A DNA stretch of 56,082 nucleotides from positions 1 to 56,082 of IMG/VR virus record IMGVR_UViG_3300030419_000877; one strand, given 5' to 3'. The notes under the pieces were generated by a model. That model did not search any database. It was not told the DNA's origin and was given only the letters and a program-made list of their open reading frames with translations. Origin of the DNA: a virus (lineage: Duplodnaviria > Caudoviricetes). Shown here piece by piece: positions 600 through 51,845 of the stretch. The translations under genes and the position numbers were made by a program. Position 1 is the stretch's first letter. Each line of letters starts with the position of its first letter.

Positions 600-638
600 T
601 ATGCCAATGCGAAATAACATATCTTAAAGGAGATTAAA

Positions 639-3790: not shown

Positions 3791-3799
3791 AGGTACAAG

Positions 3800-4840: not shown

Positions 4841-4844
4841 CAGT

Positions 4845-5078
4845 ATGGAAATAGACCCAGTAATATTTTGGAATGTAATACTTACCCTTGTCATAGCTCC
4901 TGCTATATGGACATTTCGTAATGTAATGCTTGAAGTAAAACGAATAGACATACTACTCAATAGGACAAGAGAGGAATACGCATCAAGGTCTGAAGTAAAA
5001 GAAGAGATGCACGGAGTTATGGAAGCGTTACACAGACTAGAAGATAAACTAGACAGAGTATTGAGTAAGGATAAATAA
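4845..5078 (+). CDS. Small membrane protein with coiled-coil tail
   Basis: N-terminal TM segment, LHRLEDKLDRVL heptads, TAATG overlap. Confidence 0.6.
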   Translation: MEIDPVIFWNVILTLVIAPAIWTFRNVMLEVKRIDILLNRTREEYASRSEVKEEMHGVMEALHRLEDKLDRVLSKDK

Positions 5079-7468: not shown

Positions 7469-7476
7469 GATAATAA

Positions 7477-8157: not shown

Positions 8158-8159
8158 TT

Positions 8160-13100: not shown

Positions 13101-13905
13101 TGGCACGTATGAGAGAGGCATAGGTAATATTATATTAGGTATAGTTACAGGTGAGCTAGACAGCTTCATAAGTGACTCTGCACCAACTATATGGGGAGAG
13201 GCATACTCAACAGTAGGTGCAGGTATGACAAGACCTCTTGATCCAATCAATCAAATGATAGCATTGTCTCAAGGAGAAAACTACGTAAATGTGGATAGAA
13301 GACAGGGTAATAAATACTTTAATAGAAGTATAAGATACGTAGACGCAATTTTTAATTCTATGTTGGACAAACCAGAAAAGGCAAGTGCTACCTCCGACAT
13401 ACGAAAAGGAGCAGGGACAACAAAAGTTCTAGGGTACAGAGAAGTGCCTAAGCAGAGTTATACAGAGAGGATGTTTAACGTAATAGGTAAACCGAATTGG
13501 AGAGTTGGATTCTTCGGTGATATACCAGAAGCGGATGCAAGGCTAAATCAAAGACTTTTTTATTACTTGGAGGATGCAGCAAAAACAGCATTCTTAAAAA
13601 AGGGTTTTAAAGATATGTCCACAGCACAGAAAGAAACATTTGTTAAAGACTTACTAATGAGAGCAAAAAGAAAAACAAAAGAGAGCCTTAAAAACTCTTT
13701 ATTGGTATCAGACAAATCACTTGAAAAAATGTATAGTCTTGATAAAAAATATAATGATAAAGTTTTACGAAAAGCTTTAAAAGATTTAGGTTATGATAAA
13801 GATTTAGATGATTTAAACTTTGAAGAATTAGAAATGTTAGACAGCTATATAAGCAGTAACACTCAGTATACTAAACGTAAATCTAAAAGTATTATGGAAT
13901 ACTAA
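10189..13905 (+). CDS. Large internal virion (ejectosome-like) protein
   Basis: 1238 aa helical protein, DPTNLIGFGAG motif, last gene of late arm as in T7-like gp16 position. Confidence 0.65.
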   Translation: MTNRYLKHLSDDEKEQYTALKQAEAVKPLKDDLPKLTQNDLRESPEALETIRAYMDERFGIDEISNYTDDELVSAYVNNMRRFHAGQSVATLGEVSWLHKADPDSKTVAGNAYALFDRMENIFTGKRSTFLERLDGVYDYARAAVVDPTNLIGFGAGRLVATVGTKSAATLAKKLAIDAAQKGIMKKAKGKITAKEALDKATTKVLKEKSERQFYKEAMKTFAESESKRKIIGKEVGAALGTDMALAMGVDYAYQQGMITADRQESYSTFQTGLTAMGGLIAPAFTVATKAVRGKTAKIGRLEVEAPEVGFGQKLKEDQKKNIKKHLTGVTKELDDFWRLYANDGVPSLTTKEAATLGEAQLKATGFKTLTPDETSFWKIFVKGSDDLNVRGLAQALYESGARWYGPRFEGDSFTNWMGDVIRNMPKEEMGEFIAKIKSVTKNIPEYDKALKKYRDDVLEVSENHSLTDEETMNFFANMFVQHYSDAGRRSQVMSFAAQTLSANEKIATTTKALLEANLDPISDATRKTIETTNYIQRSVIRNLVTNPGTTALNIIGWYGYSSLQSFTDLTHSALYGGGGFLKKLVGNEESSKELFRKAKALRGLQLKKVRNTLDPVTTQEAFLDYLDARPDVAKKMMQYLAGGIETEDVLKKAGFDPAQDVFKGGLEKYTDFFQTIYGTKAQDIVTKSIEFMYNIEKGLQLKYGMTYKELVNSGKIDDMLSTNDFLKIESKAIDDTLKSVFGKKYGKLDFKNPVRLVAYGIEEFRKIPVVGLSLPFGQFFNNTVAFMADYSGVNVASSVWNRKDYFSTNKKLRKLFLDSAEEKAEKARASAIRKGERTDPDSNTGKYISELTSEDKIQQYISENNTIKYTEGDLTQSMIKMAIGWSYVWMKSFQEEKNIEEGLAWDQERDADFIGGKGAALTTKQYDYPESLFKYGARIMAHKRRGEEIPTETGRVFWDVFGLGQFDRSLGTYERGIGNIILGIVTGELDSFISDSAPTIWGEAYSTVGAGMTRPLDPINQMIALSQGENYVNVDRRQGNKYFNRSIRYVDAIFNSMLDKPEKASATSDIRKGAGTTKVLGYREVPKQSYTERMFNVIGKPNWRVGFFGDIPEADARLNQRLFYYLEDAAKTAFLKKGFKDMSTAQKETFVKDLLMRAKRKTKESLKNSLLVSDKSLEKMYSLDKKYNDKVLRKALKDLGYDKDLDDLNFEELEMLDSYISSNTQYTKRKSKSIMEY

Positions 13906-13930
13906 AAAGAAAGGGGCTTTCGCCCCTCTC
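13904..13930 (-). terminator. Rho-independent terminator between the convergent arms
   Basis: Minus strand GAGAGGGGC-GAAA-GCCCCUUUC followed by a U run. Confidence 0.85.
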
Positions 13931-13934
13931 AATG

Positions 13935-14171
13935 TTAATACCATTTGGTATATAACTTAAATGGATCTGATGTCCATGAAGATGAATAGCTTGTAACACC
14001 AAGAGCTTTTAGCTCATCACGTACAGCTTCATCGGCAGACTTACGTGCTTCCATAGCAGATTTAAGACCTGCCATTCTTTTTTCACGATAAGCTTTTTTC
14101 ATTTCTCCGAGTTGAGATTCCAACTCTTTGATTTCCTTTGCCATATCTTCAAGACTTATATCACTTTCCAT
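13935..14171 (-). CDS. Small coiled-coil hypothetical protein
   Basis: GGAGG RBS before ATG at 14171 (shorter than ORF-track call). Confidence 0.65.
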   Translation of the reverse strand: MESDISLEDMAKEIKELESQLGEMKKAYREKRMAGLKSAMEARKSADEAVRDELKALGVTSYSSSWTSDPFKLYTKWY

Positions 14172-23192: not shown

Positions 23193-23952
23193 CTAACATC
23201 TCCCTCAATTTGGTAAAATCTTCTACATTCTTGTACTTTAGATCATCCATGAGCCGTAGAACCTTAACATCTTTTACATAATTTGTCAATTCTTTACTAT
23301 GTTGTAGCGTTTTTTGTAAGGCATCAGGGTCAAGAGCGACCACGACCCTATCAAAATCTGACAAAAGGTATGAATGTTCTGGTAATAGGGACGTTCCTAA
23401 AAGACCAAACCCTGTAACAGGGAAATAGTTAGCGACAGTTATGGCAGATATAACATCTTCCACTACTACAGCAGTCAGAACCTCACTTTGTTTTCTTGTA
23501 ATTGAATAATATGTTGCATTTTTACCATATTTATACCATTTTGGGTGGGTATCCTTGTCTAAAGCTCTCCCTATCGCATCAATCATCTTACCTTTTCTCA
23601 TAATGGGGAACACGACCCTATCGTTTTTAACATCATGGAACATTTTTATGTCAAAAAGACCCCATTTTAAAATAAAATCGTCACAATTATCCAAATCGCT
23701 AGAAAAATACTCTGGCAAGGCAAAGTCAACCTCCTTTTTAGGAATTGTATGCCCATTCATTTTGTGTTTTATGTCCTCAGCAGTTCTGCCAACCTTTTTT
23801 ACACCTCTTACAGTACAACTATTGCGAAAGCAGTTATAAAGTAGCACCCTATCCACCTTAGTGATAGTAAATTTTTTTACACCTTTGCAAACAGGACAAT
23901 CCATTGTCAAAGTTTCGCCATCTTTTATGTCTAAATTATTAAGAAATCTCAT
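23179..23952 (-). CDS. DNA primase (zinc finger + TOPRIM)
   Basis: CPVC...CFRNSC, VVFPI, GRAL, KWYKY, VVED, ALDPDA. Confidence 0.88.
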   Translation of the reverse strand: MRFLNNLDIKDGETLTMDCPVCKGVKKFTITKVDRVLLYNCFRNSCTVRGVKKVGRTAEDIKHKMNGHTIPKKEVDFALPEYFSSDLDNCDDFILKWGLFDIKMFHDVKNDRVVFPIMRKGKMIDAIGRALDKDTHPKWYKYGKNATYYSITRKQSEVLTAVVVEDVISAITVANYFPVTGFGLLGTSLLPEHSYLLSDFDRVVVALDPDALQKTLQHSKELTNYVKDVKVLRLMDDLKYKNVEDFTKLREMLDVKM

Positions 23953-24862
23953 TTCGGTATGAATCCCTCCTTGCAAGTGCATTTTGTGATGATTTAAATG
24001 TGTGTTTGATGTATGGACGCATTGATTGAGGCGAATTGTGACCAGATACCGCCATAATCTGCGTAGTATCTACTCCTGCCTCCACCATTTCTGTGATAGC
24101 GGTTCTCCTCATGTCCATAGCGGTAAGTTCTTTGGGTAAACCTGCCTCTTTTTTCACTTCATTAACCAGAATAGACACTTCAAACTCATTATAAGGTCTA
24201 TAACTACCATTTATAGGTCTAACATTAGGCACAACGTACTCTTGAAAGCCAAAATCATCATGTTGTTCTAGTAACATAACTAAAAGATTTGAATTAATAG
24301 GTATATGAACCTCTGCTCTACGTTTTGATTGCACCAAGTTAAGTCTTTTTGTGTCAAAATCAATAGATTTCCACTCAAGTAACCTCATATCGCCTACTCT
24401 TTGAGCAAATTCGTATGCCATGTGGACAATTAACCCAACACTTCGCCATTTGTACTGACTATATGCGGTGTCAAGGAATAATTTTACCTGCTCCCTTGAC
24501 CACATTACCCTCCGCACCTCTTGTTTTGCCTTTTTTACTCGCCTCATAGGGTTACTTGCCAGAAGTTCAAGCTCCTCTGCCATGTTAAACACCACAGATA
24601 AGACAGTAGCGGTGTTGTTTGCCATACGTTTACCCTTTTGTAGCCAAGACTGATAAACAATCTTACAATCACTCACCGATACCTTTGCTATCCGTATGCT
24701 CTCAAACGCTTTAGAAACGCTAACAGGGGTCTGTAAGGCTCTATTGAGCACATACTCGTAGTCCTTCTGTGAACGAGGTCTGAGAGCCAAAAATTGAGGG
24801 CTATGAAGGTAATATGAAACCATATCACCTATTGTTTTTATTTGTTTTGCTTTAGAATACAT
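23939..24862 (-). CDS. Tyrosine recombinase / integrase-family protein
   Basis: AQRVGD (R), QSK, DMRRT (R), SGH, PY catalytic Tyr. Confidence 0.88.
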   Translation of the reverse strand: MYSKAKQIKTIGDMVSYYLHSPQFLALRPRSQKDYEYVLNRALQTPVSVSKAFESIRIAKVSVSDCKIVYQSWLQKGKRMANNTATVLSVVFNMAEELELLASNPMRRVKKAKQEVRRVMWSREQVKLFLDTAYSQYKWRSVGLIVHMAYEFAQRVGDMRLLEWKSIDFDTKRLNLVQSKRRAEVHIPINSNLLVMLLEQHDDFGFQEYVVPNVRPINGSYRPYNEFEVSILVNEVKKEAGLPKELTAMDMRRTAITEMVEAGVDTTQIMAVSGHNSPQSMRPYIKHTFKSSQNALARRDSYRNEIS

Positions 24863-24941
24863 CTATAACCAACCATGCCATAAATAAAACGGCTAACGAA
24901 TCATAAAAGAATAATTTCATAATATTTCCTTAAAGTAAAGT

Positions 24942-25178
24942 TTATTTTTTAGCTAAAGGTATTTTAACTTCGGATATACGTCCACTAGGTCTTTGTTTCC
25001 ATATTACAAACCGCTTACCCTGACCCTCAAAAGCAATAGCCAACTTATCTTTAGTTATATATTGGGGATTATACTCCCATACATAACCCTCTTTGTAATT
25101 CTGGTATGCCTTATTAATAAATTCTGCGTTGTGCTCTACAAAAAATAAAGCGGTAAATCCTAAAAACATTTCTGTCAT
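24942..25178 (-). CDS. Hypothetical protein
   Basis: AGGAG RBS, 78 aa. Confidence 0.55.
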   Translation of the reverse strand: MTEMFLGFTALFFVEHNAEFINKAYQNYKEGYVWEYNPQYITKDKLAIAFEGQGKRFVIWKQRPSGRISEVKIPLAKK

Positions 25179-25268
25179 TTTTATCTCCTATTTAAAAAAA
25201 GTATTTTACTGTAACATCTAAAAAGTAGCATAGTGTTACCAATCCAATAAACCATAAAAACTCTTTAC

Positions 25269-25697
25269 TCATTTTTCCCACCGATAAAATATGTGGCGGT
25301 CAATCCTTGTGGTACGAGTCTTAGTCTTTCTCCACTCTGGTCTGACATATGTTGCGTGATAATGTGTCGCACCATCTGTAACATCAAGAACAATTCTACC
25401 GCTTAATACAATAGAGGCATATTCTAATGCTTTTGACCACGATTTGCTATTCATGTTTACATCATCTTTTGCACCATCACAATACCAAGAGAATTGGCAT
25501 TTGTGTAGAACAGGTTTGTTTGTACCCTTGTACGTCACCGCTTGTTTCACTACTTCACAAACTGTACTAGGAAATCGTGTGTCCTCTACTCTATTCATCA
25601 CAACTTGACCAACGGCTATTTGTCCTAACATAGATTGGTTATTAGCCTCGTGATAAATATTGACTGCCATACACATAAGTGCGGTTTCTAATATCAT
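25269..25697 (-). CDS. SleB/CwlJ-like cell wall hydrolase (Hydrolase_2)
   Basis: NIYHEA...AVGQVVMNRV...CQFSWYCDG...GATHYHA..V.P.W...IDRHIFY. Confidence 0.9.
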   Translation of the reverse strand: MILETALMCMAVNIYHEANNQSMLGQIAVGQVVMNRVEDTRFPSTVCEVVKQAVTYKGTNKPVLHKCQFSWYCDGAKDDVNMNSKSWSKALEYASIVLSGRIVLDVTDGATHYHATYVRPEWRKTKTRTTRIDRHIFYRWEK

Positions 25698-25918
25698 TCC
25701 TCTAACTCCTTTTTAATCTTTGTAGGAAGTGATTTGATTTTATCCAATTCAGAATCATCAACCATTTCATCAAAGTAGTCGTCTAGTATTGTTTCAATGT
25801 CCTCTAAGTCGCCCATCACGATATCCTCATAAAAAAACCAGAACACGCATTAAGTATAACTGTTCCAACTATAAGTATAGACATCATTACAAATAAACTT
25901 TGTCCCTCATTCATATTA

Positions 25919-26170
25919 TTACTCCATTATAAAATCTGGTTCGTTTTCTTCATTGTATTTTTGCAAAGCCTCATTAAAATTTAAGGCATCAAAATGTGAT
26001 AACTCTACTACTTCGCCAGTATTCCATTTATCAGCTTCAACTTGAGCCAATGCCCTCGTGGGAAATGTCTTAACTGGACTATTTACTGTCCAAGAACCCT
26101 CACCCTCTTTGACGTACTCTAACCCATCAACCTCAAAGGGTTCAAATACTACTGCATAATATTTATTCAT
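25919..26170 (-). CDS. Hypothetical early protein
   Basis: GGGAG RBS, 83 aa. Confidence 0.55.
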   Translation of the reverse strand: MNKYYAVVFEPFEVDGLEYVKEGEGSWTVNSPVKTFPTRALAQVEADKWNTGEVVELSHFDALNFNEALQKYNEENEPDFIME

Positions 26171-26251
26171 TCTTCTTCTCCCTCTTCTAGGTTACTCCAA
26201 TACTCTATCCAATCGCCTTGTTGGTCTTTGGTTAAATCATTCCATTCTTCT

Positions 26252-26497
26252 TCACTCATTCTTTTTCTCCTTTGGTAAATTCTCTTTAAGACAATAATCA
26301 CTATACCACCCACCTTTGTGAGGTTGTTCAAACTCTAGTATGTTTGCTAGTCTAAACATAAGAGTTTCTATCTCACAAATGTGCTCATAGTAGATAGGTA
26401 TTTTCTCTGATGTGTTACAGTTAAACTCTCTCAATACGTTAACATATTTGAGTAGTTCTACTCTGTCTTTTGGTTCTATTGTTATTACTTTACGCAT
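26252..26497 (-). CDS. Hypothetical early protein
   Basis: GAGGAG RBS, overlap with upstream gene. Confidence 0.55.
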   Translation of the reverse strand: MRKVITIEPKDRVELLKYVNVLREFNCNTSEKIPIYYEHICEIETLMFRLANILEFEQPHKGGWYSDYCLKENLPKEKKNE

Positions 26498-26699
26498 TTC
26501 TTTTCTCCTCTGTATATTCCATATAATGAATGTTATTTAAACTAAAGTTTAATACGCAGGATATAAAACCCTCTATCCCCTCAGAGCCACGATAAAATTC
26601 GTCTTTCCAATCTTTAGTATACCCAAGTTTACTTAGGTAATCTTCATTATAGGTGTGTAATTTACCCTTTTCGTAATCTAATATTGCTAATTTTAGCAT
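26490..26699 (-). CDS. Hypothetical early protein
   Basis: AGGAG RBS, abuts methyltransferase. Confidence 0.55.
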   Translation of the reverse strand: MLKLAILDYEKGKLHTYNEDYLSKLGYTKDWKDEFYRGSEGIEGFISCVLNFSLNNIHYMEYTEEKRNA

Positions 26700-27881
26700 C
26701 TACTCTACTCCTTTTAAAATGTGAGATATAACATCAACTGTAAAACCATTTCCAAGCATCTTATATCTCTGTGAATTACTAATGGGTTTTACATCATACC
26801 ACCCATCACTAACATGGTCTTCGTAGGTGTGCTTATCTGGAAAGACACCTTGCTCTGTGTACCCATCTGGAACAGTTTGCAACCTCTCACATTCAAGAGG
26901 TGTTAAGGCTCTCCAGAAAAACTCCTCTGGATTTACATTCTCCCAATTACGCACCACTACGTTATCTTTCTGTACTGTAGACAAGGTATTAGTCTTGTCG
27001 TCTGTCCTCAACTCAATGCGAGGTTTTAGTTTTAAATCTGGATTATAGTCATCTCTCTTGCCAGTTTTGGGGTTAATCTTTCGATTAATGATACGACCAC
27101 ATTCAACTTTAGGCTCTCTGTGTCCACCTTGCATGGTTGTAAGTGATGGTGCTTTACCATATCTGCTATAAACTCTGCGAATGATATCATAGCCTTTGAT
27201 GTCAGCTTCACCTACTTGTCTACAACCAAACTTACCCTCGTCATCATATACTATCTGTCGTCTAGCTTTTTCGTAGTACATTTTCATGCTACCACCCTTG
27301 AAATAATTAGCATCTATGCAGTAAGACTTATCTCTGTCTGCTATAGCACCATCTTCAAGTATATCATTCATAATGATTCCCTTATCTGGCATTAAGTCAA
27401 AGTCAATGTTTGTCCAATACAATCGCTTACGAGATTGAGCAGACATTACTGAACTGTTTATCTCGTGGCATACTACGTCTGGGAATATGCTCTGAAACAT
27501 CTCAGTAAAATAATCTTTCCAAACCTTTGGCATAGATGCAACATTCTCAATAAGAATCTTATCTACGTCTAATCCTTTGAGAGCATCAAGTAATACTTTT
27601 GACATATCTCTTGGGTCTTGTTGAAACTTCTGCAACCCTGCAACTGAATAACTCTGGCAAGGAAATCCTGCAACCAAGAGGTCAATCTTCTTTCCCTTTA
27701 ACACTTCCCAATTTCGTGCATCACCATGTCGGATAATACTTGGATAGTTGTACCGACTAACTGCACTTGAATAAGGGTCAATCTCAAAGGCATGGTATTC
27801 TTCTGGTGTGATACCTAGCTTGTCTAGTGAAAGCATTGTACCAGAAAATCCATCAAAAAAACTTGCTACTGTTTTATACAT
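26700..27881 (-). CDS. DNA (cytosine-5)-methyltransferase
   Basis: EID, GD, AGFPCQSYS (PC catalytic), ENV, QSRKRLYW, LTPLECERLQ, RYKMLGNG. Confidence 0.92.
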   Translation of the reverse strand: MYKTVASFFDGFSGTMLSLDKLGITPEEYHAFEIDPYSSAVSRYNYPSIIRHGDARNWEVLKGKKIDLLVAGFPCQSYSVAGLQKFQQDPRDMSKVLLDALKGLDVDKILIENVASMPKVWKDYFTEMFQSIFPDVVCHEINSSVMSAQSRKRLYWTNIDFDLMPDKGIIMNDILEDGAIADRDKSYCIDANYFKGGSMKMYYEKARRQIVYDDEGKFGCRQVGEADIKGYDIIRRVYSRYGKAPSLTTMQGGHREPKVECGRIINRKINPKTGKRDDYNPDLKLKPRIELRTDDKTNTLSTVQKDNVVVRNWENVNPEEFFWRALTPLECERLQTVPDGYTEQGVFPDKHTYEDHVSDGWYDVKPISNSQRYKMLGNGFTVDVISHILKGVE

Positions 27882-28010
27882 CTTTTTTATCCTCTATTGA
27901 ATCCTCAATTATTTCTTTAATTTCTAAAAGTTTTTCTAAAGTAAATGCATCTCTTATAAAATATTTTACCTCATGCAATTTATTATCCAACATTATTTTA
28001 TAATCTTCAT

Positions 28011-28202
28011 TCATTTTTTTCTCTCCTTAAAACCTATTATAAATCTATCGTTGTCTTTATCTTCTGCATCTGGATAGAATATATGACAGAAATCCAAAAG
28101 TAAATCTTTATCTTCACCATCACTAAAAAACTTTCTAAAATCTATCTCTGTATTAAGGTTGTCTAACTTCATAATCTTCTCTATTAATTCTCTAGCTTTC
28201 AT
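28011..28202 (-). CDS. Hypothetical early protein
   Basis: AGGAG RBS, 63 aa. Confidence 0.5.
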   Translation of the reverse strand: MKARELIEKIMKLDNLNTEIDFRKFFSDGEDKDLLLDFCHIFYPDAEDKDNDRFIIGFKERKK

Positions 28203-28206
28203 TCTC

Positions 28207-28395
28207 TTAACTCCTATTCAAATTGTTGTAAGTATTTAATAAAAAATATTCTAAGTCATCTACCAAATCCCCAAGAGTATCTTGGTTGTCTGTTCCCTCG
28301 TGAACTCTTTTAATGTCACGAAGTTTATGTGCTTTAATCGTTTCCTTAACATCATTCAAGTTAAAGATAGCATTGTTTATATCATCAAGTTTCAT
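28207..28395 (-). CDS. Hypothetical early protein
   Basis: GAGGAG RBS, 62 aa. Confidence 0.5.
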   Translation of the reverse strand: MKLDDINNAIFNLNDVKETIKAHKLRDIKRVHEGTDNQDTLGDLVDDLEYFLLNTYNNLNRS

Positions 28396-28535
28396 CTCTT
28401 AACTCCTCTACTTCTGAGAGTTTATAATATAGTTCACAATCCCAAGTTTCTGCATCTTCATCTTCAATGACTACAGACTTGTAATCCACCCAAATAATTT
28501 GACCATATATCTCTTGGTCAATTACTTTTATTCTG

Positions 28536-28739
28536 TCACCTATCTTCATCTCTTAACTCCTCTCTTACTTTATTGCTATCTAACAAATGATAATACAAAT
28601 TATCTACAATATCAGTAGGTATTACATTTTCGTTATTCATCTGAAGAATATCACTTATAGTTAATTTATGTACTTTTTCTGTGTGTTCAACACTTGCTAT
28701 TGTTTTACTCATTATCTTTACCTCCTCTTGATTTTTCAT
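28536..28739 (-). CDS. Hypothetical early protein (likely start near 28712)
   Basis: GAGGAGG RBS upstream of the internal MSKTIAS start. Confidence 0.45.
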   Translation of the reverse strand: MKNQEEVKIMSKTIASVEHTEKVHKLTISDILQMNNENVIPTDIVDNLYYHLLDSNKVREELRDEDR

Positions 28740-28902
28740 ATTCTGCTCTCCACCTCTTTAGGTCAAGCTCTCGCCTTGCGTGTCTGCGATTCTGTTCTTT
28801 CTCCCTCTTGTCCTCTATAATCTGCGAACTCTTGCGAATAAACTCAGGGTTTCTAGGCTTTGGAGTCTTTACTTTTTTATAATATGTTTTAGGCATAATC
28901 AA
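28705..28902 (-). CDS. Small basic hypothetical protein
   Basis: KPRNP...IEDKR motif, GAGG RBS. Confidence 0.5.
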   Translation of the reverse strand: MIMPKTYYKKVKTPKPRNPEFIRKSSQIIEDKREKEQNRRHARRELDLKRWRAEYEKSRGGKDNE

Positions 28903-29401
28903 CCCTCATTTCACTTAACCACTCTGGCATATATCTACCTTTGTTGTATCTAGCGAATCGCATTTTGTCTACATAATAAAACTTACGATAGGCATTTACT
29001 GGCATAAATTCATCTGTCTTTAAATCATCATGTCCACTGAAACACTGTGGGTGTTTTGTAATGCCTAACTCTGGTAGAAACTGACCACCTTTAGATAAAG
29101 CAATACTGTGTTTTCCTGCTCCATGCCATTTGTTATATCTGTGGTGGTATTCCCCTAGCATGGCACAATACAAACTATACGCATATTCATAATTACTTCT
29201 ACTGTGCATAGCCCATAGTGTACAAGGGTGCTTTTGATGAACTGGTTTATACAAATCATTCTCCTCTGCGTACTCTGGTGCGTGATGCCATAAAGCAGTA
29301 CATAGCATCTGCGATTCTTCCAATGGCATCTTTACAATATGTTGGTCACATAATGATTGTGCTATGCTTACAACATCATAATCTATAATAAATCTATTCA
29401 T
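28889..29401 (-). CDS. Pyrimidine-dimer DNA glycosylase (T4 endonuclease V-like) family protein
   Basis: DQHIVKMPLE..QML, HPCTLWA, EY..RY.K.H, PQC, AYRKFY..DK. Confidence 0.7.
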   Translation of the reverse strand: MNRFIIDYDVVSIAQSLCDQHIVKMPLEESQMLCTALWHHAPEYAEENDLYKPVHQKHPCTLWAMHSRSNYEYAYSLYCAMLGEYHHRYNKWHGAGKHSIALSKGGQFLPELGITKHPQCFSGHDDLKTDEFMPVNAYRKFYYVDKMRFARYNKGRYMPEWLSEMRVDYA

Positions 29402-29405
29402 CTCA

Positions 29406-29630
29406 CTAATCCCCATGTTTTGCGAAGTACCATTGTCCTATTCCAAAACTTCTATCAAAGTACGAGTCCATTAATTTTAATACTTCATAGTTTACATCAT
29501 CATCAGTACACTCTTTCCCATCAATATCTTTGTGCATCATGGAGTCGTACAGTATATCGTGTAGCTTTCCATATAAAGACACCCATACATCTTTAGGTAA
29601 TTTTATTCGTTTCATCTCACTATTCCCCAT
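29406..29630 (-). CDS. Hypothetical early protein
   Basis: ORF in operon. Confidence 0.5.
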   Translation of the reverse strand: MGNSEMKRIKLPKDVWVSLYGKLHDILYDSMMHKDIDGKECTDDDVNYEVLKLMDSYFDRSFGIGQWYFAKHGD

Positions 29631-29983
29631 GTTATCTGCGATTTAATCGAATCAACTGTCGAATCACAGTCTACACTATCTCCATTCTCATCACAACCAA
29701 TAATTAAACCTCTGTTTACTAGCGGTATATTCTGGTGCATCTCATGGGCATTGTAGCGGTAGGTAAACCAATGCTTATCCTCATTTGGTGCATACAATCC
29801 CTCATCATCTACATAAATGCCATCATTACCCATTGGTATTCGCACAATGTCAAAGGCTCTTACTTTATGTGAATTGCCAAACGAATTGGTAAAACTTAGG
29901 TGCTCATAGATAGTCTTATAATCTCCATTGTAGTCTATCTGTGTTATCTGTTTTGCCTTTGGGTCTATAAGTATTGCTCTCAT
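29612..29983 (-). CDS. DUF3846-like protein
   Basis: AILIDP, IYVDDEGL, GLIIG.DENGD; AGGAGAGG RBS. Confidence 0.7.
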   Translation of the reverse strand: MRAILIDPKAKQITQIDYNGDYKTIYEHLSFTNSFGNSHKVRAFDIVRIPMGNDGIYVDDEGLYAPNEDKHWFTYRYNAHEMHQNIPLVNRGLIIGCDENGDSVDCDSTVDSIKSQITWGIVR

Positions 29984-30157
29984 GCTACCTCTCCTTTACT
30001 AAAACTTTAGGGGAACATTCACTACAACAATCTGTGTGTACATAATTATCCCACGCAAAGTTATAATCGTCTGTCGTTATTTCATTAGGGTCAAAGTTTG
30101 TGTGGCATACACCACAAGTTATAACATCTTCTTCCCATATTTCACTAATTTTTACAC

Positions 30158-30538
30158 TCATGCTACTTCCCCTTTACCAAAATATTTCTTTGCTACATCT
30201 GTAGTTATAATATATTCTCCCCCATTTTTCAAGTCTTGAATTAGATAAGGTTTACTTCTTGCCTTACGTCTAAAACCAGACAGACTAAAATCCTTGCCAT
30301 CTAGTTTGGCTATCTTGGTTAGGTCTAGGTTATCCATCTCAGCAAATATTTCTAAGTCTTTCTGCGTTTGAGATTTTGACCCTTTAATCTTTAGGTTTAG
30401 CTTAAAGGTTACTTCATCATCACTAAATGATGCGTTACCTACTGTTACGTCAAATTGTTCAAGTCTTTCGTTATCTTTAAGAATATTATCTAATGTTTCT
30501 CTTACTCTCTTTAGTATTTGTCTATCTAGTTTTTCCAC
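30158..30538 (-). CDS. Hypothetical early protein
   Basis: AGGAG RBS before GTG, 126 aa. Confidence 0.6.
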   Translation of the reverse strand: MEKLDRQILKRVRETLDNILKDNERLEQFDVTVGNASFSDDEVTFKLNLKIKGSKSQTQKDLEIFAEMDNLDLTKIAKLDGKDFSLSGFRRKARSKPYLIQDLKNGGEYIITTDVAKKYFGKGEVA

Positions 30539-30566
30539 GATTTTACTCCTATTAAAATGTCTATAA

Positions 30567-30599
30567 TTAGTTTTACCCTACTTTAAATGATTCGGTCAA
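30567..30599 (-). promoter_or_regulatory. Putative sigma70-type early promoter
   Basis: Minus strand TTGACC-N18-TAAAACTAA with a GANTC right after the -35, intergenic. Confidence 0.45.
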
Positions 30600-30661
30600 G
30601 TTTTATTTCTCGAACCCTACCCTACCCTATCCTATGATAGTAAATCTTTCATAATTTTTTC

Positions 30662-30702
30662 AAAAGAAAAAAGTGGCGAGTCTTGGTGGTTATCGACTCG
30701 CC
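30662..30702 (-). terminator. Probable intrinsic terminator after GP88-like gene
   Basis: GGCGAGTC-12 nt-GACTCGCC inverted repeat followed on minus strand by a U-rich run. Confidence 0.65.
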
Positions 30703-30724
30703 TAGTTAGGAGGAAACGACTCAA

Positions 30725-31432
30725 CTATCTTTTAATCTTTTCAACTATAATATTATTATCTTGTTTGTCTGAGTGTTTATAACATCTCAAACAATCTTTG
30801 CATTGTTGACCGCTACAATTTTGAATCTCTTTGAAATTTTCACCATTTACATTATTAAAAACTTTATCAAAATTTTTGGGAATCTTGGTTATAACTTTAT
30901 CGACTCTAGTATTAGAAAAAACAATAATAAGATTTTTTGGTTTATCTCTCTTATCAAAAAACTTTTTTATAATGTCACTGCGTTTTGTCCATAAAGCAAA
31001 ATTACAATGCGGATTATATTCCGCTATCCTACAGTAATTTTCTATCATGTTATATTTAGGAAATCTTTTAATAATGACTCCGTTGTCGTCAACAATTTCT
31101 GTTAATAATTCCCCATGATGATTAAACCTAAAAAAAGCTTGTAGAAAATAAAATTGCTTTATTTCGTTATCATCAAGAATCTTTTCCGCTAATATTTCGT
31201 TTTTATCTAATGATAGCGGTAAGTTTTTCATATAAGAATTTATTGATGAATGGGAGTAACAGACTCCGCATACGTCAACAATTTTTCCCGCCAATTCGTT
31301 TTTCTTTTTTCCCTCTAAAAATTTTTGATAACAGAATCCGTTTTTCTTGGTATTGTTTCCGATTGCATTAAAATCTTTTAACTTGCCACGCAACTTAGAA
31401 ACATGACCTAGTTGAGTATTATCTAAAGGCAT
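30725..31432 (-). CDS. GP88-like (Cys-rich, radical-SAM-like) phage protein
   Basis: C....CGVCY, FRFNHHGE, FALWTK, PKNLII, CSGQQCKDCLRC. Confidence 0.65.
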   Translation of the reverse strand: MPLDNTQLGHVSKLRGKLKDFNAIGNNTKKNGFCYQKFLEGKKKNELAGKIVDVCGVCYSHSSINSYMKNLPLSLDKNEILAEKILDDNEIKQFYFLQAFFRFNHHGELLTEIVDDNGVIIKRFPKYNMIENYCRIAEYNPHCNFALWTKRSDIIKKFFDKRDKPKNLIIVFSNTRVDKVITKIPKNFDKVFNNVNGENFKEIQNCSGQQCKDCLRCYKHSDKQDNNIIVEKIKR

Positions 31433-31433
31433 T

Positions 31434-31643
31434 TTATATTCTCCTTAATGTAATTGTAATATAGATTAAACCTAAACCGCCTAAACCATAATGAAACAAT
31501 GCGGTATAAAAAAAGAATAAATCAATATTACTATTTCCGAAATCTGAAATAAAAGTTGAAGACATCATGTTAATATAAATGTTTCCTATTATAAACATCA
31601 TAAAACAAGCTAACATCTGAAATATTTTACCTAGTACAATCAT
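31434..31643 (-). CDS. Small two-TM membrane protein
   Basis: GGAGG RBS before ATG 31643; two hydrophobic stretches. Confidence 0.55.
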   Translation of the reverse strand: MIVLGKIFQMLACFMMFIIGNIYINMMSSTFISDFGNSNIDLFFFYTALFHYGLGGLGLIYITITLRRI

Positions 31644-31705
31644 TTTTGAATCCTCCAATTTTATAGGCGGAGTCTAGCATTAAACCAGACTCCGCTTGTT
31701 TAAAT

Positions 31706-32062
31706 TTATTGTTGAGTAATAACAGTTGTTATTCTCTTACCATTCGTCAACTTGCGTTGTTTCTGTACTAAATAATCATAAGTACGAGTCCCACCATTTC
31801 TGGAATAATTCGCATAGTAATTGACTCGGTTTCCAATTCTCACAACTAGAAAGCCCTCTTTGGATTTACCGCCACTTGTAAGATAAATTGCGTTATCTTG
31901 AGTCTTGTCATTAATGCGGACTCTGTATGGTTGCACGTTGTTTAACTCTAAAAGGTCAAAAACAAATTTTGCCATTTCTTGACTATCGCTAGTAAAATCA
32001 AACATTTTAATAGCGGTTTTGATTTGCTTGTTGTGGATTGCGTTTATATCTAAATTTTGCAT
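31706..32062 (-). CDS. Hypothetical immediate-early protein
   Basis: GGAGG RBS before ATG 32062. Confidence 0.6.
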   Translation of the reverse strand: MQNLDINAIHNKQIKTAIKMFDFTSDSQEMAKFVFDLLELNNVQPYRVRINDKTQDNAIYLTSGGKSKEGFLVVRIGNRVNYYANYSRNGGTRTYDYLVQKQRKLTNGKRITTVITQQ

Positions 32063-32111
32063 GTTTACCTCCAATGGTTTATATGCGGTTATTGTTAAAC
32101 TCAAATACTAA

Positions 32112-32567
32112 TTATTTACCAATTCGTCGATTAAAGTCATTAATAGCGGTTTCTAAGTCAAGGTCATAATGACCATTAGAAAATGATATTCCCTCCTCAT
32201 TCTCAGAAAAAAAGATAGTGAAATAAGCTTTATCTGAAAAAGTAGGATTATTAAATTTTCCTAGAATAAAACCGAGTCCGTTTTGTTCGAGTGGCGTTTT
32301 GCCTTTTTCGATAATTAAAGCGGTTTTTCCTCCAATTATAACAGTAGAAGAGTCAAGCGGAGTCACAGTCTGAATTTCAGAATCAATATCAACCATAGTG
32401 ACATTATGCTTTTCTACTAAATCAGATTTTAATTCAGGATTGTTATTGATATACCTTTGAATAGCTAACTTTCGTAATTCAAGATTTTCAATTAAATCCG
32501 AATTGAAATTTCCGTCAATCGTTGCGTGTGAAATTGCGTTGTTTATTTGTGTGTTATTTATAACCAT
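32112..32567 (-). CDS. Hypothetical immediate-early protein (first gene of early arm)
   Basis: AAGGA RBS; C-terminal GHYD....A..DF..R motif. Confidence 0.6.
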   Translation of the reverse strand: MVINNTQINNAISHATIDGNFNSDLIENLELRKLAIQRYINNNPELKSDLVEKHNVTMVDIDSEIQTVTPLDSSTVIIGGKTALIIEKGKTPLEQNGLGFILGKFNNPTFSDKAYFTIFFSENEEGISFSNGHYDLDLETAINDFNRRIGK

Positions 32568-33017
32568 TTTTTACGTTTCCTTGTTTTGATGATTCGCCAA
32601 AATCAACGAATCAATATTGAATTAATAAGATTATGACTCAGAATGACTCAGAAATAAAGTTTTTTATAAATTATTTTTTATAGGACTAAACATCATTAAT
32701 TTTTTTAATAGGTATATTCGGAGTCGATAGTGTCCGCTTGTAGATATTTTTAGAGTCTGCAACGGAGTCGGGGTGATACCGCTTTTTATGGCCATATTTC
32801 AGACTCAACGAATAACTAAACAGTTTATAAACGTATATAAATCAATAATTTATACTTATATTCCTACCGCTTTTTAAAAATATTATTCCCAAAATACACA
32901 CGCTATTTTTTCACACCGCACCGCCTACCGCTGCCTACGCAACGTGATAGTGCGTGGGACACCCCCCCATCTATGGTATATATATATGTACAAATACACA
33001 GAAGTGGTTTTTTTGAC

Positions 33018-33049
33018 TTGACAGGAGGTGAAAAACATGGTATAACTAA
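33018..33049 (+). promoter_or_regulatory. Sigma70-type promoter of late arm
   Basis: TTGACA-N17-TATAAC(TAA), with TG upstream of -10. Confidence 0.75.
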
Positions 33050-33103
33050 GTTAAGACTTCTTAGTTGAAACATAAAGTTATAACATATATAATATATACA
33101 TTA

Positions 33104-33171
33104 ATATAGTTAAGACTATATGTTATAACTATCTATATTATATACATAAATATAGTTAAAACTATATGTTA
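33104..33171. repeat. Two 22-bp direct repeats, each palindromic
   Basis: ATATAGTTAAGACTATATGTTA at 33104 and ATATAGTTAAAACTATATGTTA at 33150. Confidence 0.85.
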
Positions 33172-33227
33172 AGACTCTCTCTTTATATATACTCATATTA
33201 ATTATTCCTTCCTACCTAAATTAACTA

Positions 33228-33515
33228 TTGACAATGCGTAAAAATAAAGTAAAACTATATTCATCTGATAATGTTATCGAAGAGTTCTACGAAGCTATCA
33301 GTGAAAACAACCCAAATAAGGCTCAAAGACTTCATATTCCTAAATCAGATGTCTTCTATATCCGTCAAGCCATCTATGAAAAAACTGGAAACCTTTACAC
33401 CCTAGACCACGTAGAACGTGCCTTGTTTTTGGAAGGATACCTAAATAGAGGGGAAGTCCTAGACCCTGATAGACCTAGAGGTTACTGCTCATATGACACC
33501 AGAGATGCTAGATAG
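33228..33515 (+). CDS. Hypothetical protein, first gene of late arm
   Basis: About 93-95 aa ORF, HIPKSDVFYIR motif. Confidence 0.6.
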   Translation: MTMRKNKVKLYSSDNVIEEFYEAISENNPNKAQRLHIPKSDVFYIRQAIYEKTGNLYTLDHVERALFLEGYLNRGEVLDPDRPRGYCSYDTRDAR

Positions 33516-33732
33516 ATGGAAAATCCTGCCAAGACTAATGATGTTGACCATGACAGGCGTTTACATTCGCTGTATCGAATGGGCTTTGAGTCAGCCAGAC
33601 TTGAGTACGGCACAAGCAGGGCTAGTATCAGTGATAACTGGTGCTATGACTGGGAGTTTCGCCATATGGATGGGTGCAGAGAGCAAATCGGAACAGAGGT
33701 CATTACCACCGCAAACAAGGGAAGAACATTAA
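33493..33732 (+). CDS. Small two-TM membrane protein (holin-like)
   Basis: DRWKILPRLMM, two TM helices, GAGG RBS. Confidence 0.6.
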   Translation: MTPEMLDRWKILPRLMMLTMTGVYIRCIEWALSQPDLSTAQAGLVSVITGAMTGSFAIWMGAESKSEQRSLPPQTREEH

Positions 33733-50315: not shown

Positions 50316-51845
50316 ATGCCTGATTTATCGCAAACAGCCCCTGCGTCCTTTAACTGTGAGGGTGGACTTGTTTTAAACCGTTCTACCTTTATGATGCAAC
50401 CGGGAGAAGCATTAGAACTTGTAAACTTTGAACCTGACATTGAGGGTGGTTACAGAAGAATAAACGGTTTTAGTAAGTATGTAAGTGCCGTAGTACCATA
50501 TACAAGTTCTGCCAGTGAAAAAGTTTTAATGGTTGCAACATTTGGTGACTACGTTTTAGCGGCAAGAGGAACAAGTATATATAGTGCCACAGCAGGTGGT
50601 TCAAGTTGGACAAGTAGAGATAGTGGTAGAACGAGTGCAGGTAAATATAACTTTGAGCGTTTTAACTTTGATGGCACAGATAAGATAGTAGTTGTAGATG
50701 GAGCGAATTACCCAACTATATTTAACAGTTCTCTTAGTGCTACGGATGCAAGTACAAGCAGTGTTGAAGGCTCAAAGTATGTGGCAGCTTTTAAGAACCA
50801 CATGTTTTACGCAGGAAAGTCTACAACAAAACAAGAAGTAGTATTTAGTCAGCCCTTTGATGAAGACGCATTTAGTAGTGGTAGTGGTGCAGGAAGTATA
50901 AAGGTTGACGACACAGTAACAGGTCTTAAAGTTTTCCGTGATAATTTATTTATCTTTTGTGAAAACAGAATATTTAAGATGAGTGGGAGCACCTCAAGTG
51001 ACTTTGCAGTCACAGCCGTTACAAGAGACATTGGTTGTATTAACGGAGACACGATACAGGAATTTGCAGGTGACTTAATATTCTTAGGACCAGACGGATT
51101 GAGAACCGTTGCAGGTACAGCAAGAATTGGTGACGTTGAACTTGGTACTATTAGCTCTAACGTACAGTCTATATTTGACGAGAATTTATCAAGTGCATCA
51201 GAGTTTGAAAGTGTAGTAATACCAGACAGGACACAGTATAGAATATTCTTTACTAAAGATTCAGTTGCCAAAAACAGCACAAAAGGTGTAGCCTGTGTTT
51301 TAAAGGGACAAGCATTTGAGTTTTCAGAACTAAGAGGTATACGTCCTGCATGTACAGATGGATTTGTTAAATCAGGGGACGTTATAATACTACACGGTGA
51401 CTACTCTAATGGGTATGTATATAGGCAAGAATCAGGCAATGACTTTGACGGAACTGCAATAAACGGAAAGTATAGAAGCCCTGACATGACGTTTGGGGAT
51501 GCAGGTATCCGTAAACACATGCAACGAGTTATTATTAACTACGCACCTGAATCAACTATAGACGCAGACCTTTTTTTAAGGTACGACTATGAAGCAAAAG
51601 ATTCACCAAGACCTGCGGCATATGCACTAGACTCAAGCGATATCGCAGCTGTGTATGGAGTAACAACATATGGTGGTTCATCTAGTAGCTTTGGTACATA
51701 TGGTGGTGCATCACAGCCACTCGTAAGACAACCAGTAGAAGGTTCAGGGTTTGCAGTAGCACTAAGAGTAAATGATGGTGGGACGACAGCACCATATTCA
51801 TTAAAAGGATTTCAGTTGGAATATCAATTAGGAGCAAGAAGGTAA
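50316..51845 (+). CDS. Tail nozzle / tubular protein B-like
   Basis: GGL start, GGYRRING, IGCI...TIQE..GDLIFL.PDGLR beta-propeller pattern. Confidence 0.7.
   Translation: MPDLSQTAPASFNCEGGLVLNRSTFMMQPGEALELVNFEPDIEGGYRRINGFSKYVSAVVPYTSSASEKVLMVATFGDYVLAARGTSIYSATAGGSSWTSRDSGRTSAGKYNFERFNFDGTDKIVVVDGANYPTIFNSSLSATDASTSSVEGSKYVAAFKNHMFYAGKSTTKQEVVFSQPFDEDAFSSGSGAGSIKVDDTVTGLKVFRDNLFIFCENRIFKMSGSTSSDFAVTAVTRDIGCINGDTIQEFAGDLIFLGPDGLRTVAGTARIGDVELGTISSNVQSIFDENLSSASEFESVVIPDRTQYRIFFTKDSVAKNSTKGVACVLKGQAFEFSELRGIRPACTDGFVKSGDVIILHGDYSNGYVYRQESGNDFDGTAINGKYRSPDMTFGDAGIRKHMQRVIINYAPESTIDADLFLRYDYEAKDSPRPAAYALDSSDIAAVYGVTTYGGSSSSFGTYGGASQPLVRQPVEGSGFAVALRVNDGGTTAPYSLKGFQLEYQLGARR

What the first reader, a model, noticed from the sequence alone, without database searches (positions are those of the whole stretch)
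30589..32931. Leading early region is saturated with two short motifs, GANTC and WCCGC: candidate methylation-coded entry/early-expression system
Seen: about 30 GANTC sites in 30589-32806 (21 of them GAGTC/GACTC) and about 24 CCGC/GCGG sites in 30810-32931 (23 of them WCCGC) in very AT-rich DNA. The adjacent 28.0-30.5 kb has only about 7 and 2. The motifs occur in both orientations, inside four ORFs as well as between genes, and are sometimes fused as GCGGAGTC/GACTCCGC (31262, 31667, 31688, 32357). The block stops abruptly at the divergence point of the two arms. Established: GANTC is the CcrM m6A target of Alphaproteobacteria and is read by GcrA, and phages normally avoid rather than accumulate short recognition sites in first-entering DNA. 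Inference: this is probably the first DNA injected, and it seems selected to display an array of protein or methylation sites. These could mimic self, recruit GcrA-RNA polymerase or a translocase to pull DNA in, act as a decoy for defence proteins, or sense host cell-cycle state.
Basis: partly seen in the sequence, partly recalled or inferred. Interest (0 to 1): 0.88.

Follow-up and report, generated by a model that had tools for sequence, protein, structure and literature searches.

The report
GANTC site array over phage early operon
One lineage of marine HMO-2011-type phages packs its first early operon with GANTC, the word that alphaproteobacterial hosts methylate, about once every 100 bases, which suggests the phage's start-up is read at the DNA level, though what reads it is unknown.

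Summary
Window 30589-32931 holds 30 GANTC (21 of them GAGTC/GACTC) and 24 CCGC/GCGG. An unbiased k-mer scan ranks these two words first, and codon-preserving shuffles never reach the observed counts.

The block coincides with the first leftward transcription unit, from the divergent control region to an intrinsic terminator. It holds four small ORFs.

Comparative data refine the finding:
- The shared motif is GANTC. Of 22 related loci anchored at the divergence point, 9 carry 23-31 GANTC in the first 2.7 kb (about 7 expected). The other 13 have 0-6.
- In one relative the array lies on non-homologous DNA, so it is a property of the position.
- GANTC sites are conserved about twice as often as background words, and they favour inverted pairs 15-19 bp apart.
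- CCGC is a separate, fast-turning layer. It is absent from relatives that avoid CCGC genome-wide.

The phage encodes no CcrM- or GcrA-like protein. "First DNA injected" could not be tested, and the feature is not general to HMO-2011-type phages.

My best reading (0.4) is a methylation-sensitive protein-binding array that controls the immediate-early operon. This scan has noted similar GANTC islands in other phages (unchecked notes).

The parts
30589..32931 (.). Motif block: 30 GANTC (21 GASTC, 9 GAWTC) and 24 CCGC/GCGG on both strands, in ORFs and between them; 30.8% GC
32568..33227 (.). Divergent control region between the leftward early operon and the rightward arm. It holds 8 GANTC and 6 CCGC; the inverted repeat TGATTCG-N10-CGAATCA (32590-32613); the tandem TGACTCAGAA x2 (32634-32653); the genome's only GGCC (32790); a strong rightward promoter-like site at 33065-33093 (TTGAAA-17-TATAAT); and a 46-nt tandem repeat at 33085-33176
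32112..32567 (-). orf151, first gene of the leftward unit; no family match; homologs only in L003 and L009
31706..32104 (-). orf132; no family match; contains the weak dyad GAGTC-N14-GACTC at 31900-31923
31667..31695 (-). Intergenic hairpin with arms GCGGAGTCT / AGACTCCGC; dG -22.1 kcal/mol, z -6.4; conserved in L003, L009, L088 and L089
31434..31658 (-). orf74, a small hydrophobic ORF with no homologs found
30725..31432 (-). orf235, a Cys-rich GP88-family protein (PF17338). It is the last gene of the unit and the only gene found in all 8 block-bearing relatives checked
30655..30702 (-). Intrinsic terminator that closes the block: stem GGCGAGTC / GACTCGCC followed by a U tract; dG -18.3 kcal/mol, z -6.4. 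GAGTC/GACTC is kept in L003 and L009 while other stem positions covary

Best explanation
The block is a positively selected, position-specific array of GANTC sites, about one per 100 bp. It covers the first (immediate-early) leftward transcription unit in one clade of HMO-2011-type marine phages.

I think it most likely works as a methylation-sensitive protein-binding array. The host's CcrM-type methylase writes m6A on GANTC. A DNA-binding factor then reads the sites, many of which are arranged as inverted pairs 15-19 bp apart. That factor could be the host GcrA-sigma70 RNA polymerase complex or a still unidentified dyad-binding protein. Expression of the early operon would then depend on the methylation state of the phage genome: incoming or prophage DNA versus freshly replicated DNA, or the stage of the host cell cycle.

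The CCGC/GCGG sites are a second, evolutionarily labile layer, tolerated or used only in lineages whose hosts do not restrict CCGC.

What is shown: the array, selection on it, its boundaries, its independence from gene content, and the pairing of sites.
For: - Enrichment is far above composition and codon-preserving nulls. Neighbouring control ORFs are not enriched.
- The array is positional. In L086 the 1.8 kb between orf95 and orf235 has no blastn match to the window and encodes different ORFs, yet holds 23 GANTC in 1.64 kb. Its three ORFs hold 11 GANTC against 2.3 under synonymous shuffling (0 of 1000).
- The distribution is bimodal. Of 22 anchored loci, 9 have 23-31 GANTC in the first 2.7 kb (5.6-7.6 expected) and 13 have 0-6. 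Of 77 loci of at least 6 kb, 9 have 21-27 GANTC in their best 2-kb window and the next highest has 12.
- All four GANTC variants are enriched across the clade.
- Sites are conserved: GASTC 14 of 22 in L003 and 11 of 22 in L009, against background 5-mer retention of 33-35% and 19-23%.
- Density is almost equal inside ORFs (9.2/kb) and outside them (11.3/kb) over 8 blocks.
- Neighbour gaps of 15-19 bp occur 22 times against 9.8 expected (0 of 3000 simulations reach this). Close GASTC pairs are arranged GAGTC..GACTC 21 times and the reverse 3 times. Of 38 close pairs, 21 are inverted.
- The block runs from the divergent control region to an intrinsic terminator.
- The rest of the genome is about two-fold depleted in GANTC, as reported for GANTC-methylating marine Alphaproteobacteria (PMC8919816).
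- Published precedents: GcrA acts at methylated GANTC near -20 and +2 to +30 (PMC4647560). In Brevundimonas a 26-gene prophage operon is GcrA-dependent, about half of GcrA peaks are intragenic, and only the basic GANTC motif is seen (PMC7987155). DNA-binding proteins compete with CcrM at GANTC (PMC5172544).
Against: - No methylation data exist for this phage, and its host is unknown (one search gave only MAG contigs with conflicting labels).
- The phage has no CcrM-type or GcrA domain, so virion DNA may be unmethylated.
- The flanks do not match Caulobacter's YGAKTCK context: Y at position -1 in 47 of 115 sites, K at +1 in 68 of 115.
- Promoter-like sites are not enriched in the region (14 found, 16.7 expected), and most sites are intragenic, which a promoter-proximal mechanism does not explain.
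- No CtrA or DnaA boxes lie nearby.
- In the window the middle base is strongly biased to S (21 to 9), which CcrM alone does not predict.
- Cultured relatives on CcrM-bearing hosts lack the array, and three of them purge GANTC from the same region.
- The window, L003 and L009 share homologous sites, so pair counts are partly non-independent.
Confidence: 0.4

Rival explanations
1. A methylation-independent operator array. A phage-encoded (or host) dyad-symmetric DNA-binding protein uses GANTC as its half-site and coats the immediate-early operon cooperatively. It would act as a repressor in lysogeny or as an early shut-off factor. The match to the CcrM word would be coincidental or secondary.
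For: - Inverted GANTC pairs at 15-19 bp are over-represented, and many have no further stem complementarity.
- The composite GCGGAGTC occurs 4 times in the block and nowhere else in the genome.
- The array is limited to one clade.
- Sister lineages carry their own repeated palindromes in the early arm: AGTCCG-N4-CGGACT x3 in HMO-2011 and in L068, and GTCCCAACGTTGGGAC x3 in L071.
- The phage has an integrase.
- There is a solved precedent for a protein reading GANTC: the ribbon-helix-helix domain of pED208 TraM binds GANTC pairs (PMC3159463, passages read).
Against: - No RHH or HTH domain was detected in 10 small early ORFs, even at E up to 5.
- No gene other than orf235 tracks the block. orf235 looks like an Fe-S or zinc protein of the GP88 family, with no sign of a DNA-binding fold.
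- Most sites are unpaired and evenly spread through coding DNA.
- A chance match of a phage operator half-site to the one 5-mer that alphaproteobacterial hosts methylate is a priori unlikely.
- The preferred spacing (15-19 bp) differs from TraM's 12 bp.
Confidence: 0.27
2. A decoy or sink. The array titrates a host GANTC-binding activity (CcrM, GcrA, or a GANTC-specific defence enzyme) once the phage genome multiplies. This would disturb the host cell cycle or blunt a defence system.
For: - The selected feature looks like site density more than exact position: CCGC turns over completely while its count is kept.
- Density is uniform in coding and non-coding DNA.
- Phage phiCbK carries a GcrA homolog that has been speculated to stall the cell cycle (cited in PMC7987155, passage read).
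Against: - GANTC sites are positionally conserved above background and show ordered pairing, which a pure sink does not need.
- A sink would work anywhere in the genome, yet the rest of the genome is depleted in GANTC.
- Thirty sites per genome is a small load compared with the thousands of sites in a host chromosome (4,542 in Caulobacter, PMC4647560).
Confidence: 0.1
3. A replication-origin or packaging-control region whose firing or cutting is gated by methylation. It would resemble the Dam-site clusters of E. coli oriC and the phage P1 pac site (both recalled, not from a call).
For: - The cumulative GC skew minimum lies at about 33 kb.
- This is the most AT-rich part of the genome.
- Tandem 46-nt repeats lie next to it.
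Against: - The skew switch coincides with the switch of gene strand, so it is not informative.
- There are no DnaA boxes.
- The array spans 2.3 kb of coding DNA at about 10 sites/kb, much longer and sparser than known origin or pac clusters.
- The terminase genes lie more than 5 kb away.
Confidence: 0.08
4. No function: a by-product of recombination, composition or mutation bias in a hypervariable region.
For: - The region is hypervariable. Genes differ between close relatives, and many metagenomic contigs end just upstream of the anchor gene.
Against: - Enrichment is 4-10 times above composition.
- It recurs on non-homologous DNA.
- Sites are conserved above background.
- GANTC is kept in hairpin stems while other stem positions covary.
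- The distribution among relatives is sharply bimodal.
Confidence: 0.05

Closest known systems
GcrA/CcrM-dependent sigma-70 promoters of Caulobacter and Brevundimonas (PMC4647560, PMC7987155; passages read)
   Same: The same 5-base word, GANTC. The likely host class is Alphaproteobacteria. A prophage operon is known to be GcrA-dependent. GcrA also occupies intragenic sites.
   Different: Known cases have one or two sites close to a transcription start. Here about 30 sites cover 2.3 kb, including coding DNA. The Caulobacter flank context YGAKTCK is not met. Methylation and GcrA binding have not been tested.
pED208 TraM bound to sbmA: ribbon-helix-helix reading of paired GANTC motifs (PMC3159463; passages read)
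   Same: A protein reads GANTC as a pseudo-palindrome, cooperatively, in pairs with inverted symmetry.
   Different: TraM pairs are 12 bp apart and four motifs make up one site at a plasmid oriT. Here the preferred spacing is 15-19 bp, there are dozens of sites, and no RHH gene was found.
Dam-site (GATC) clusters at E. coli oriC and the phage P1 pac site (recalled, not from a call)
   Same: Local clustering of a host methylase word, used as a methylation-state switch.
   Different: Those clusters are 150-250 bp long, much denser, and non-coding. They lie at an origin or packaging site, not over an early operon.
Stoperator and operator arrays of temperate phages such as cluster A mycobacteriophages (recalled; also named in scan note e1-3412011)
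   Same: Many copies of a short site spread through transcribed DNA of a temperate phage to control whole operons. Sister lineages here carry lineage-specific palindrome arrays in the early arm.
   Different: Stoperators are 13-14 bp, asymmetric, oriented with transcription and spread genome-wide. Here the word is 5 bp, lies on both strands and is confined to one operon.
Restriction-site avoidance in early-entering phage DNA (T7, T5; recalled)
   Same: Short recognition words are under strong selection in the early region. This genome lacks GCGC, CGCG, CCWGG and CCAGC completely, has a single GGCC, and sister phages purge GANTC from their first 4 kb.
   Different: The sign is opposite here: the word is accumulated, not purged.

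Membership tests
CcrM-target (GANTC) methylation array | The word is GANTC with any middle base | tested here: met
   All four variants are enriched across 8 blocks. The window itself is biased to G/C in the middle position (21 of 30).
CcrM-target (GANTC) methylation array | Sites carry m6A written by a CcrM-type methylase | not testable with these tools
   No methylome is available. The phage has no N6_N4_Mtase domain. The host is unknown.
CcrM-target (GANTC) methylation array | The genome otherwise shows the GANTC under-representation typical of GANTC-methylating hosts | tested here: met
   The rest of the genome has 85 observed against 168 expected. All 22 anchored loci have O/E of 0.18-0.88. 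Compare PMC8919816.
GcrA-activated promoter | GANTC lies near -20 or at +2 to +30 of a sigma-70 promoter | tested here: inconclusive
   There is one candidate on the minus strand, TTTATT-N17-CATAAT, with two GAGTC in the spacer (32626-32665, read). It is weak and not conserved in L003. Promoter-like sites are not enriched.
GcrA-activated promoter | Extended context YGAKTCK (Caulobacter) | tested here: not met
   Y at -1 in 47 of 115 sites and K at +1 in 68 of 115. Brevundimonas GcrA shows no extended motif (PMC7987155).
TraM-type RHH site | GANTC pairs 12 bp apart, plus a ribbon-helix-helix reader gene | tested here: not met
   The excess is at 15-19 bp (22 against 9.8). At 10-14 bp it is weaker (16 against 10.4, P 0.06). 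No RHH domain was found.
Repeated RNA hairpin elements (terminators, processing sites) | The motif copies lie in hairpin stems between genes | tested here: not met
   Only 0-6 of the 23-36 GANTC per block lie in perfect stems of at least 7 bp. Two real hairpins exist.
Chi-like or other strand-specific signals | Strong orientation bias relative to an end or to transcription | tested here: not met
   CCGC 14 against GCGG 10, and GAGTC 10 against GACTC 11, on the + strand.
Target array of the phage's own methyltransferases | The methylase gene or its target-recognition region co-varies with the motif layer | tested here: not met
   L086-L090 have the block but neither methylase within reach. The main target-recognition region of the C5 enzyme is shared by CCGC-rich and CCGC-free genomes.

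The most novel reading that the evidence does not exclude
The array is an epigenetic barcode that lets the phage tell genomes apart by their history. DNA methylated at GANTC (a prophage, or a genome matured while CcrM was present) and freshly replicated unmethylated DNA would drive the immediate-early operon differently. This would give a built-in early-to-late switch, or a sensor of the host cell cycle, read by GcrA-RNA polymerase or by a new methylation-sensitive dyad-binding protein. If the similar islands noted by this scan in unrelated phages hold up, this would be a convergent strategy of phages of Alphaproteobacteria.
Probability: 0.25. Interest if true: 0.85.

Novelty: new variant of a known kind. 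Interest (0 to 1): 0.6.

Why it matters
Phages are expected to purge short words that host enzymes recognise, especially from DNA that acts first. Here a clade does the opposite with the one word that its likely hosts methylate for cell-cycle control. It does so at a cost to its codons, and it maintains the array even on unrelated gene content.

This gives a concrete, testable handle on how uncultured marine phages couple start-up, and perhaps the lysogeny decision, to host epigenetic state. It also predicts a reader of GANTC arrays that is not yet known.

I found no description of such an array in print. The main HMO-2011-type paper, PMC9038755, contains none of the words methyl, GANTC or early.

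Tried and rejected
Readings I tested and rejected:
- Longer repeats as the source of the motifs: rejected.
- A coding artefact: rejected by codon shuffles.
- Hairpins as the source: only a small minority of sites.
- Shine-Dalgarno overlap: at most 4 sites per block.
- Helical or codon periodicity: none.
- Chi-like orientation: none.
- The phage methyltransferases as writers: no co-variation. The 181-aa enzyme matches no Pfam family and no PDB sequence.
- GcrA or CcrM homologs in the phage: none.
- CtrA and DnaA boxes: none near the block.
- Rfam families in 23500-33600: none.

'Other words' in other lineages turned out to be a different thing. CCCGAC, CCCGAA, ATGGG repeats and poly-C are strand-specific tandem G- or C-tract arrays at discrete spots, not analogues of the dispersed GANTC array.

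Steps that led nowhere:
- The orf235 structure model had mean pLDDT 46, so no fold search was run. A profile of it found no PDB relative.
- orf151 gave no relatives in viral contigs.
- Host identification through the DNA polymerase gave only MAG contigs with conflicting labels.
- Sequencing runs: no RNA holder is listed and every holder is kept as assembled contigs, so I did not use read laying, and neither termini nor expression could be assessed.
- Supplementary files of the methylome papers were not opened. They may list methylated motifs of viral genomes that bear on this finding.
Full report
**What the window is.** The 56,082-base window is a complete-looking IMG/VR virus record (CheckV 100%, no end repeats). 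It is an HMO-2011-type podovirus. Its DNA polymerase is 59-62% identical to those of Roseobacter phages CRP-603 and CRP-2 and of Puniceispirillum phage HMO-2011.

Two arms diverge at about 33.1 kb.
- The leftward arm (33073 down to 13935) carries small early ORFs, a C5 cytosine methyltransferase (26700-27881), an integrase, a primase, a helicase, the DNA polymerase, a Cas4-like exonuclease and ribonucleotide reductase.
- The rightward arm carries small ORFs, a 181-aa methyltransferase-like protein (phrog_799), terminase, portal, capsid and tail genes.

I count 30 GANTC sites between 30589 and 32802 (10 GAGTC, 11 GACTC, 9 GAWTC). There are 24 CCGC/GCGG sites between 30810 and 32928, and 23 of them are flanked by A or T.

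No other 1-kb bin of the genome comes near this. The block is 30.8% GC, and the expected counts are about 2 for GASTC and 3-4 for CCGC. When all 4-, 5- and 6-mers are ranked without a preset motif, these two words come first.

The enrichment is not a consequence of the encoded proteins.
- The four ORFs hold 10 GASTC and 16 CCGC, against means of 2.5 and 5.1 after synonymous-codon shuffling. None of 2000 shuffles reaches the observed counts.
- For all GANTC the figures are 16 against 6.3 (0 of 1000). Four ORFs just outside the block show 5 against 5.2.

The sites are not pieces of longer repeats. The exact 8-mer GCGGAGTC occurs 4 times in the block and nowhere in the other 53.7 kb.

**Anatomy.** The block coincides with the first leftward transcription unit. 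It starts in the divergent control region (32568-33227). It runs through orf151, orf132, a strong intergenic hairpin (31667-31695, dG -22.1, z -6.4), orf74 and orf235. It ends at an intrinsic terminator (stem 30675-30702 followed by a U tract, dG -18.3, z -6.4).

A promoter-like site follows the terminator, at 30663-30634 on the minus strand. The two hairpins are built from the enriched words, but perfect stems of at least 7 bp contain only 6 of the 30 GANTC.

orf235 is a Cys-rich member of the phage GP88 family. All 8 aligned homologs match PF17338 (best E 5.8e-12), and the atlas score is 0.97. The other three ORFs match nothing.

**Relatives: the shared word is GANTC and the feature is positional.** I anchored searches on a conserved 175-aa protein and on orf235, which brought in 89 viral-contig loci.

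In a census of 77 sources of at least 6 kb (the window plus 76 of all the loci fetched by then), 9 have 21-27 GANTC in their best 2-kb window. The next highest has 12.

A second test used the conserved first gene of the rightward arm (orf95) to fix the divergence point. Of 22 loci with at least 2.5 kb of early arm:
- 9 have 23-31 GANTC in the first 2.7 kb (5.6-7.6 expected);
- 13 have 0-6 (4.8-12.6 expected).

The block-bearing arms are 28-31% GC and the others 35-48%. Some of the nine are near-duplicates (L086, L087, L090), so the number of independent lineages is nearer six.

In L014 and L086-L090, GAWTC is as enriched as GASTC. The clade-wide word is therefore GANTC, and the window's bias to GASTC is a local flavour.

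In L086 the DNA between orf95 and orf235 has no blastn match to the window and encodes different ORFs. It still holds 23 GANTC in 1.64 kb, and its three ORFs hold 11 GANTC against 2.3 under synonymous shuffling (0 of 1000). The density is therefore selected at this position, whatever genes lie there.

Over 8 blocks the density is 9.2 per kb inside ORFs and 11.3 per kb outside them.

**Selection on the sites.** The window's block aligns with L003 and L009 at 73.6% and 68.6% nucleotide identity.
- GASTC sites are retained 14 of 22 and 11 of 22 times, against background 5-mer retention of 33-35% and 19-23%.
- CCGC sites are retained 10 of 24 and 8 of 24 times, about the background rate, although each genome keeps 17-24 of them.

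In the conserved terminator the stem changes (GGCGAGTC in the window, GGGAGTC in L009) while GAGTC/GACTC stays.

**Arrangement.**
- Neighbour gaps of 15-19 bp occur 22 times against 9.8 expected (0 of 3000 simulations). Gaps of 10-14 bp occur 16 times against 10.4.
- Close GASTC pairs are arranged GAGTC..GACTC 21 times and the reverse 3 times.
- Of 38 pairs 10-19 bp apart, 21 are inverted. About a quarter would be inverted if the middle bases were independent (my arithmetic).
- Many of these pairs have no further complementarity, so they look more like dyad protein sites than RNA stems.
- The window, L003 and L009 share homologous sites, so these counts are partly non-independent.

**CCGC is a separate layer.** It is enriched in the window, L003 and L009, and weakly in L088 and L089. 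It is absent from the blocks of L014, L086, L087 and L090, which are poor in CCGC throughout.

Several relatives avoid the word almost completely:
- L073 and L074: 0 (L074: 17 expected);
- L071: 4 against 22 expected;
- L014: 7 against 34 expected;
- the SAR11 phage HTVC033P: 2 in 14 kb.

This points to CCGC-specific restriction in some hosts. Outside its block the window is not depleted in CCGC (93 observed, 80 expected).

**Context of motif selection.** The window completely lacks GCGC, CGCG, CCWGG and CCAGC/GCTGG, and it has a single GGCC, at 32790 inside the block. Strong restriction avoidance therefore operates in the block too. GANTC outside the block is about two-fold depleted (85 against 168).

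Passages of PMC8919816 report a similar roughly two-fold GANTC deficit in marine SAR116, Rhodospirillales and Rhodobacteraceae genomes that methylate all GANTC. The same paper reports GAWTC-only methylation in some SAR11.

The cultured relatives do not share the array. HMO-2011 shows nothing, and CRP-603, CRP-2 and CRP-207 have no GANTC at all in their first 4 kb.

**Who reads or writes the sites?**
- The phage has no GcrA (PF07750) or CcrM-type (PF01555) domain.
- Neither phage methyltransferase tracks either motif layer.
- No RHH or HTH domain was detected in ten small early ORFs.
- The flanks of 115 GANTC from four diverged blocks do not fit Caulobacter's YGAKTCK (motif from PMC4647560).
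- There are no CtrA or DnaA boxes near the block.
- Promoter-like sites are not enriched.

Published precedents that make a host-factor reading plausible:
- GcrA-sigma70 acts at methylated GANTC (PMC4647560).
- A 26-gene prophage operon in Brevundimonas is GcrA-dependent. About half of GcrA peaks there are intragenic, and no extended motif is seen (PMC7987155).
- MucR and CtrA compete with CcrM at GANTC (PMC5172544).

A methylation-independent precedent also exists: the RHH domain of pED208 TraM reads paired GANTC motifs (PMC3159463).

**Verdict.**
- The array, its boundaries, its selection and its independence from gene content are shown.
- That it is a methylation-sensitive protein-binding array controlling the immediate-early operon is my best inference (0.4).
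- A methylation-independent operator array is the main rival (0.27).
- 'First DNA injected' is untested. No terminal repeats were found, the terminase has no solved relative by sequence, and only contigs are available for read mapping.
- The claim that this typifies HMO-2011-type phages is not supported.

**Earlier notes and print.** This scan holds unchecked notes of GANTC islands in early operons of several unrelated uncultured phages. If confirmed, they would make this a convergent feature and favour a host factor. I did not test them.

I found no printed description of such arrays.

Noticed in passing
whole window: The genome completely avoids GCGC, CGCG, CCWGG and CCAGC/GCTGG (0 observed against 41-64 expected where computed). 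It has a single GGCC (78 expected), at 32790 inside the block. CCCG/CGGG and CCCAG are also strongly depleted. This is a multi-motif signature of restriction avoidance.
   Followed up: partly
L014, L071, L073, L074; L085 (HTVC033P) 1-14000: These loci almost totally avoid CCGC/GCGG: 0-7 sites against 17-34 expected, and 2 in 14 kb for the SAR11 phage HTVC033P. This suggests CCGC-specific restriction in some hosts of this phage family.
   Followed up: partly
L082, L083, L084 (CRP-603, CRP-2, CRP-207) 1-4000: The three cultured roseophages have no GANTC at all in the first 4 kb of their early arm, although GANTC occurs further along. This is the opposite of the window's clade.
   Followed up: partly
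L093 5832-8197; L094 3450-5257; L086 6782-6878; L014 7001-9500: Strand-specific tandem G-tract or C-tract arrays recur at discrete spots between early genes, for example TCGGGGTCGGGTCGGG, (CCCGAA)n, ATGGGATGGGATGGGAGG and poly-C runs. They could form G-quadruplexes.
   Followed up: no
L081 (HMO-2011) 60, 1261, 1926; L068 4524, 5464, 5976; L071 5092, 5508, 6555: Lineage-specific small palindromes or hairpins are repeated three times between early genes: AGTCCG-N4-CGGACT in HMO-2011 and L068, and GTCCCAACGTTGGGAC in L071. They may be operators or RNA processing sites.
   Followed up: no
L083 (CRP-2) 1-2000: The word ACGGT is dispersed 15 times in the first 2 kb, 12 of them on the sense strand and 8 of 11 in-CDS copies in one reading frame. 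It is enriched beyond codon shuffles (0 of 2000).
   Followed up: partly
window 26700-27881: The C5 methyltransferase carries a roughly 50-residue insert after its main target-recognition region. The insert is shared with L007 and L025 but absent from the closest relatives L003, L009 and L014. It may be a second recognition module.
   Followed up: partly
window 51501-53500: ACCGTC/GACGGT occurs 10 times (0.5 expected) inside the 826-aa gene at 51846-54326. This is probably a repeated peptide.
   Followed up: no
loci (e.g. L001, L005, L008, L020, L021, L060, L075, L080): Many metagenomic contigs end within a few hundred bases upstream of the 175-aa anchor gene. This fits assembly breaking at a hypervariable early region.
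   Followed up: no
window 33085-33176: A 46-nt AT-rich tandem repeat (2 copies, 87% identical) lies just downstream of the strong rightward promoter-like site at 33065-33093.
   Followed up: no
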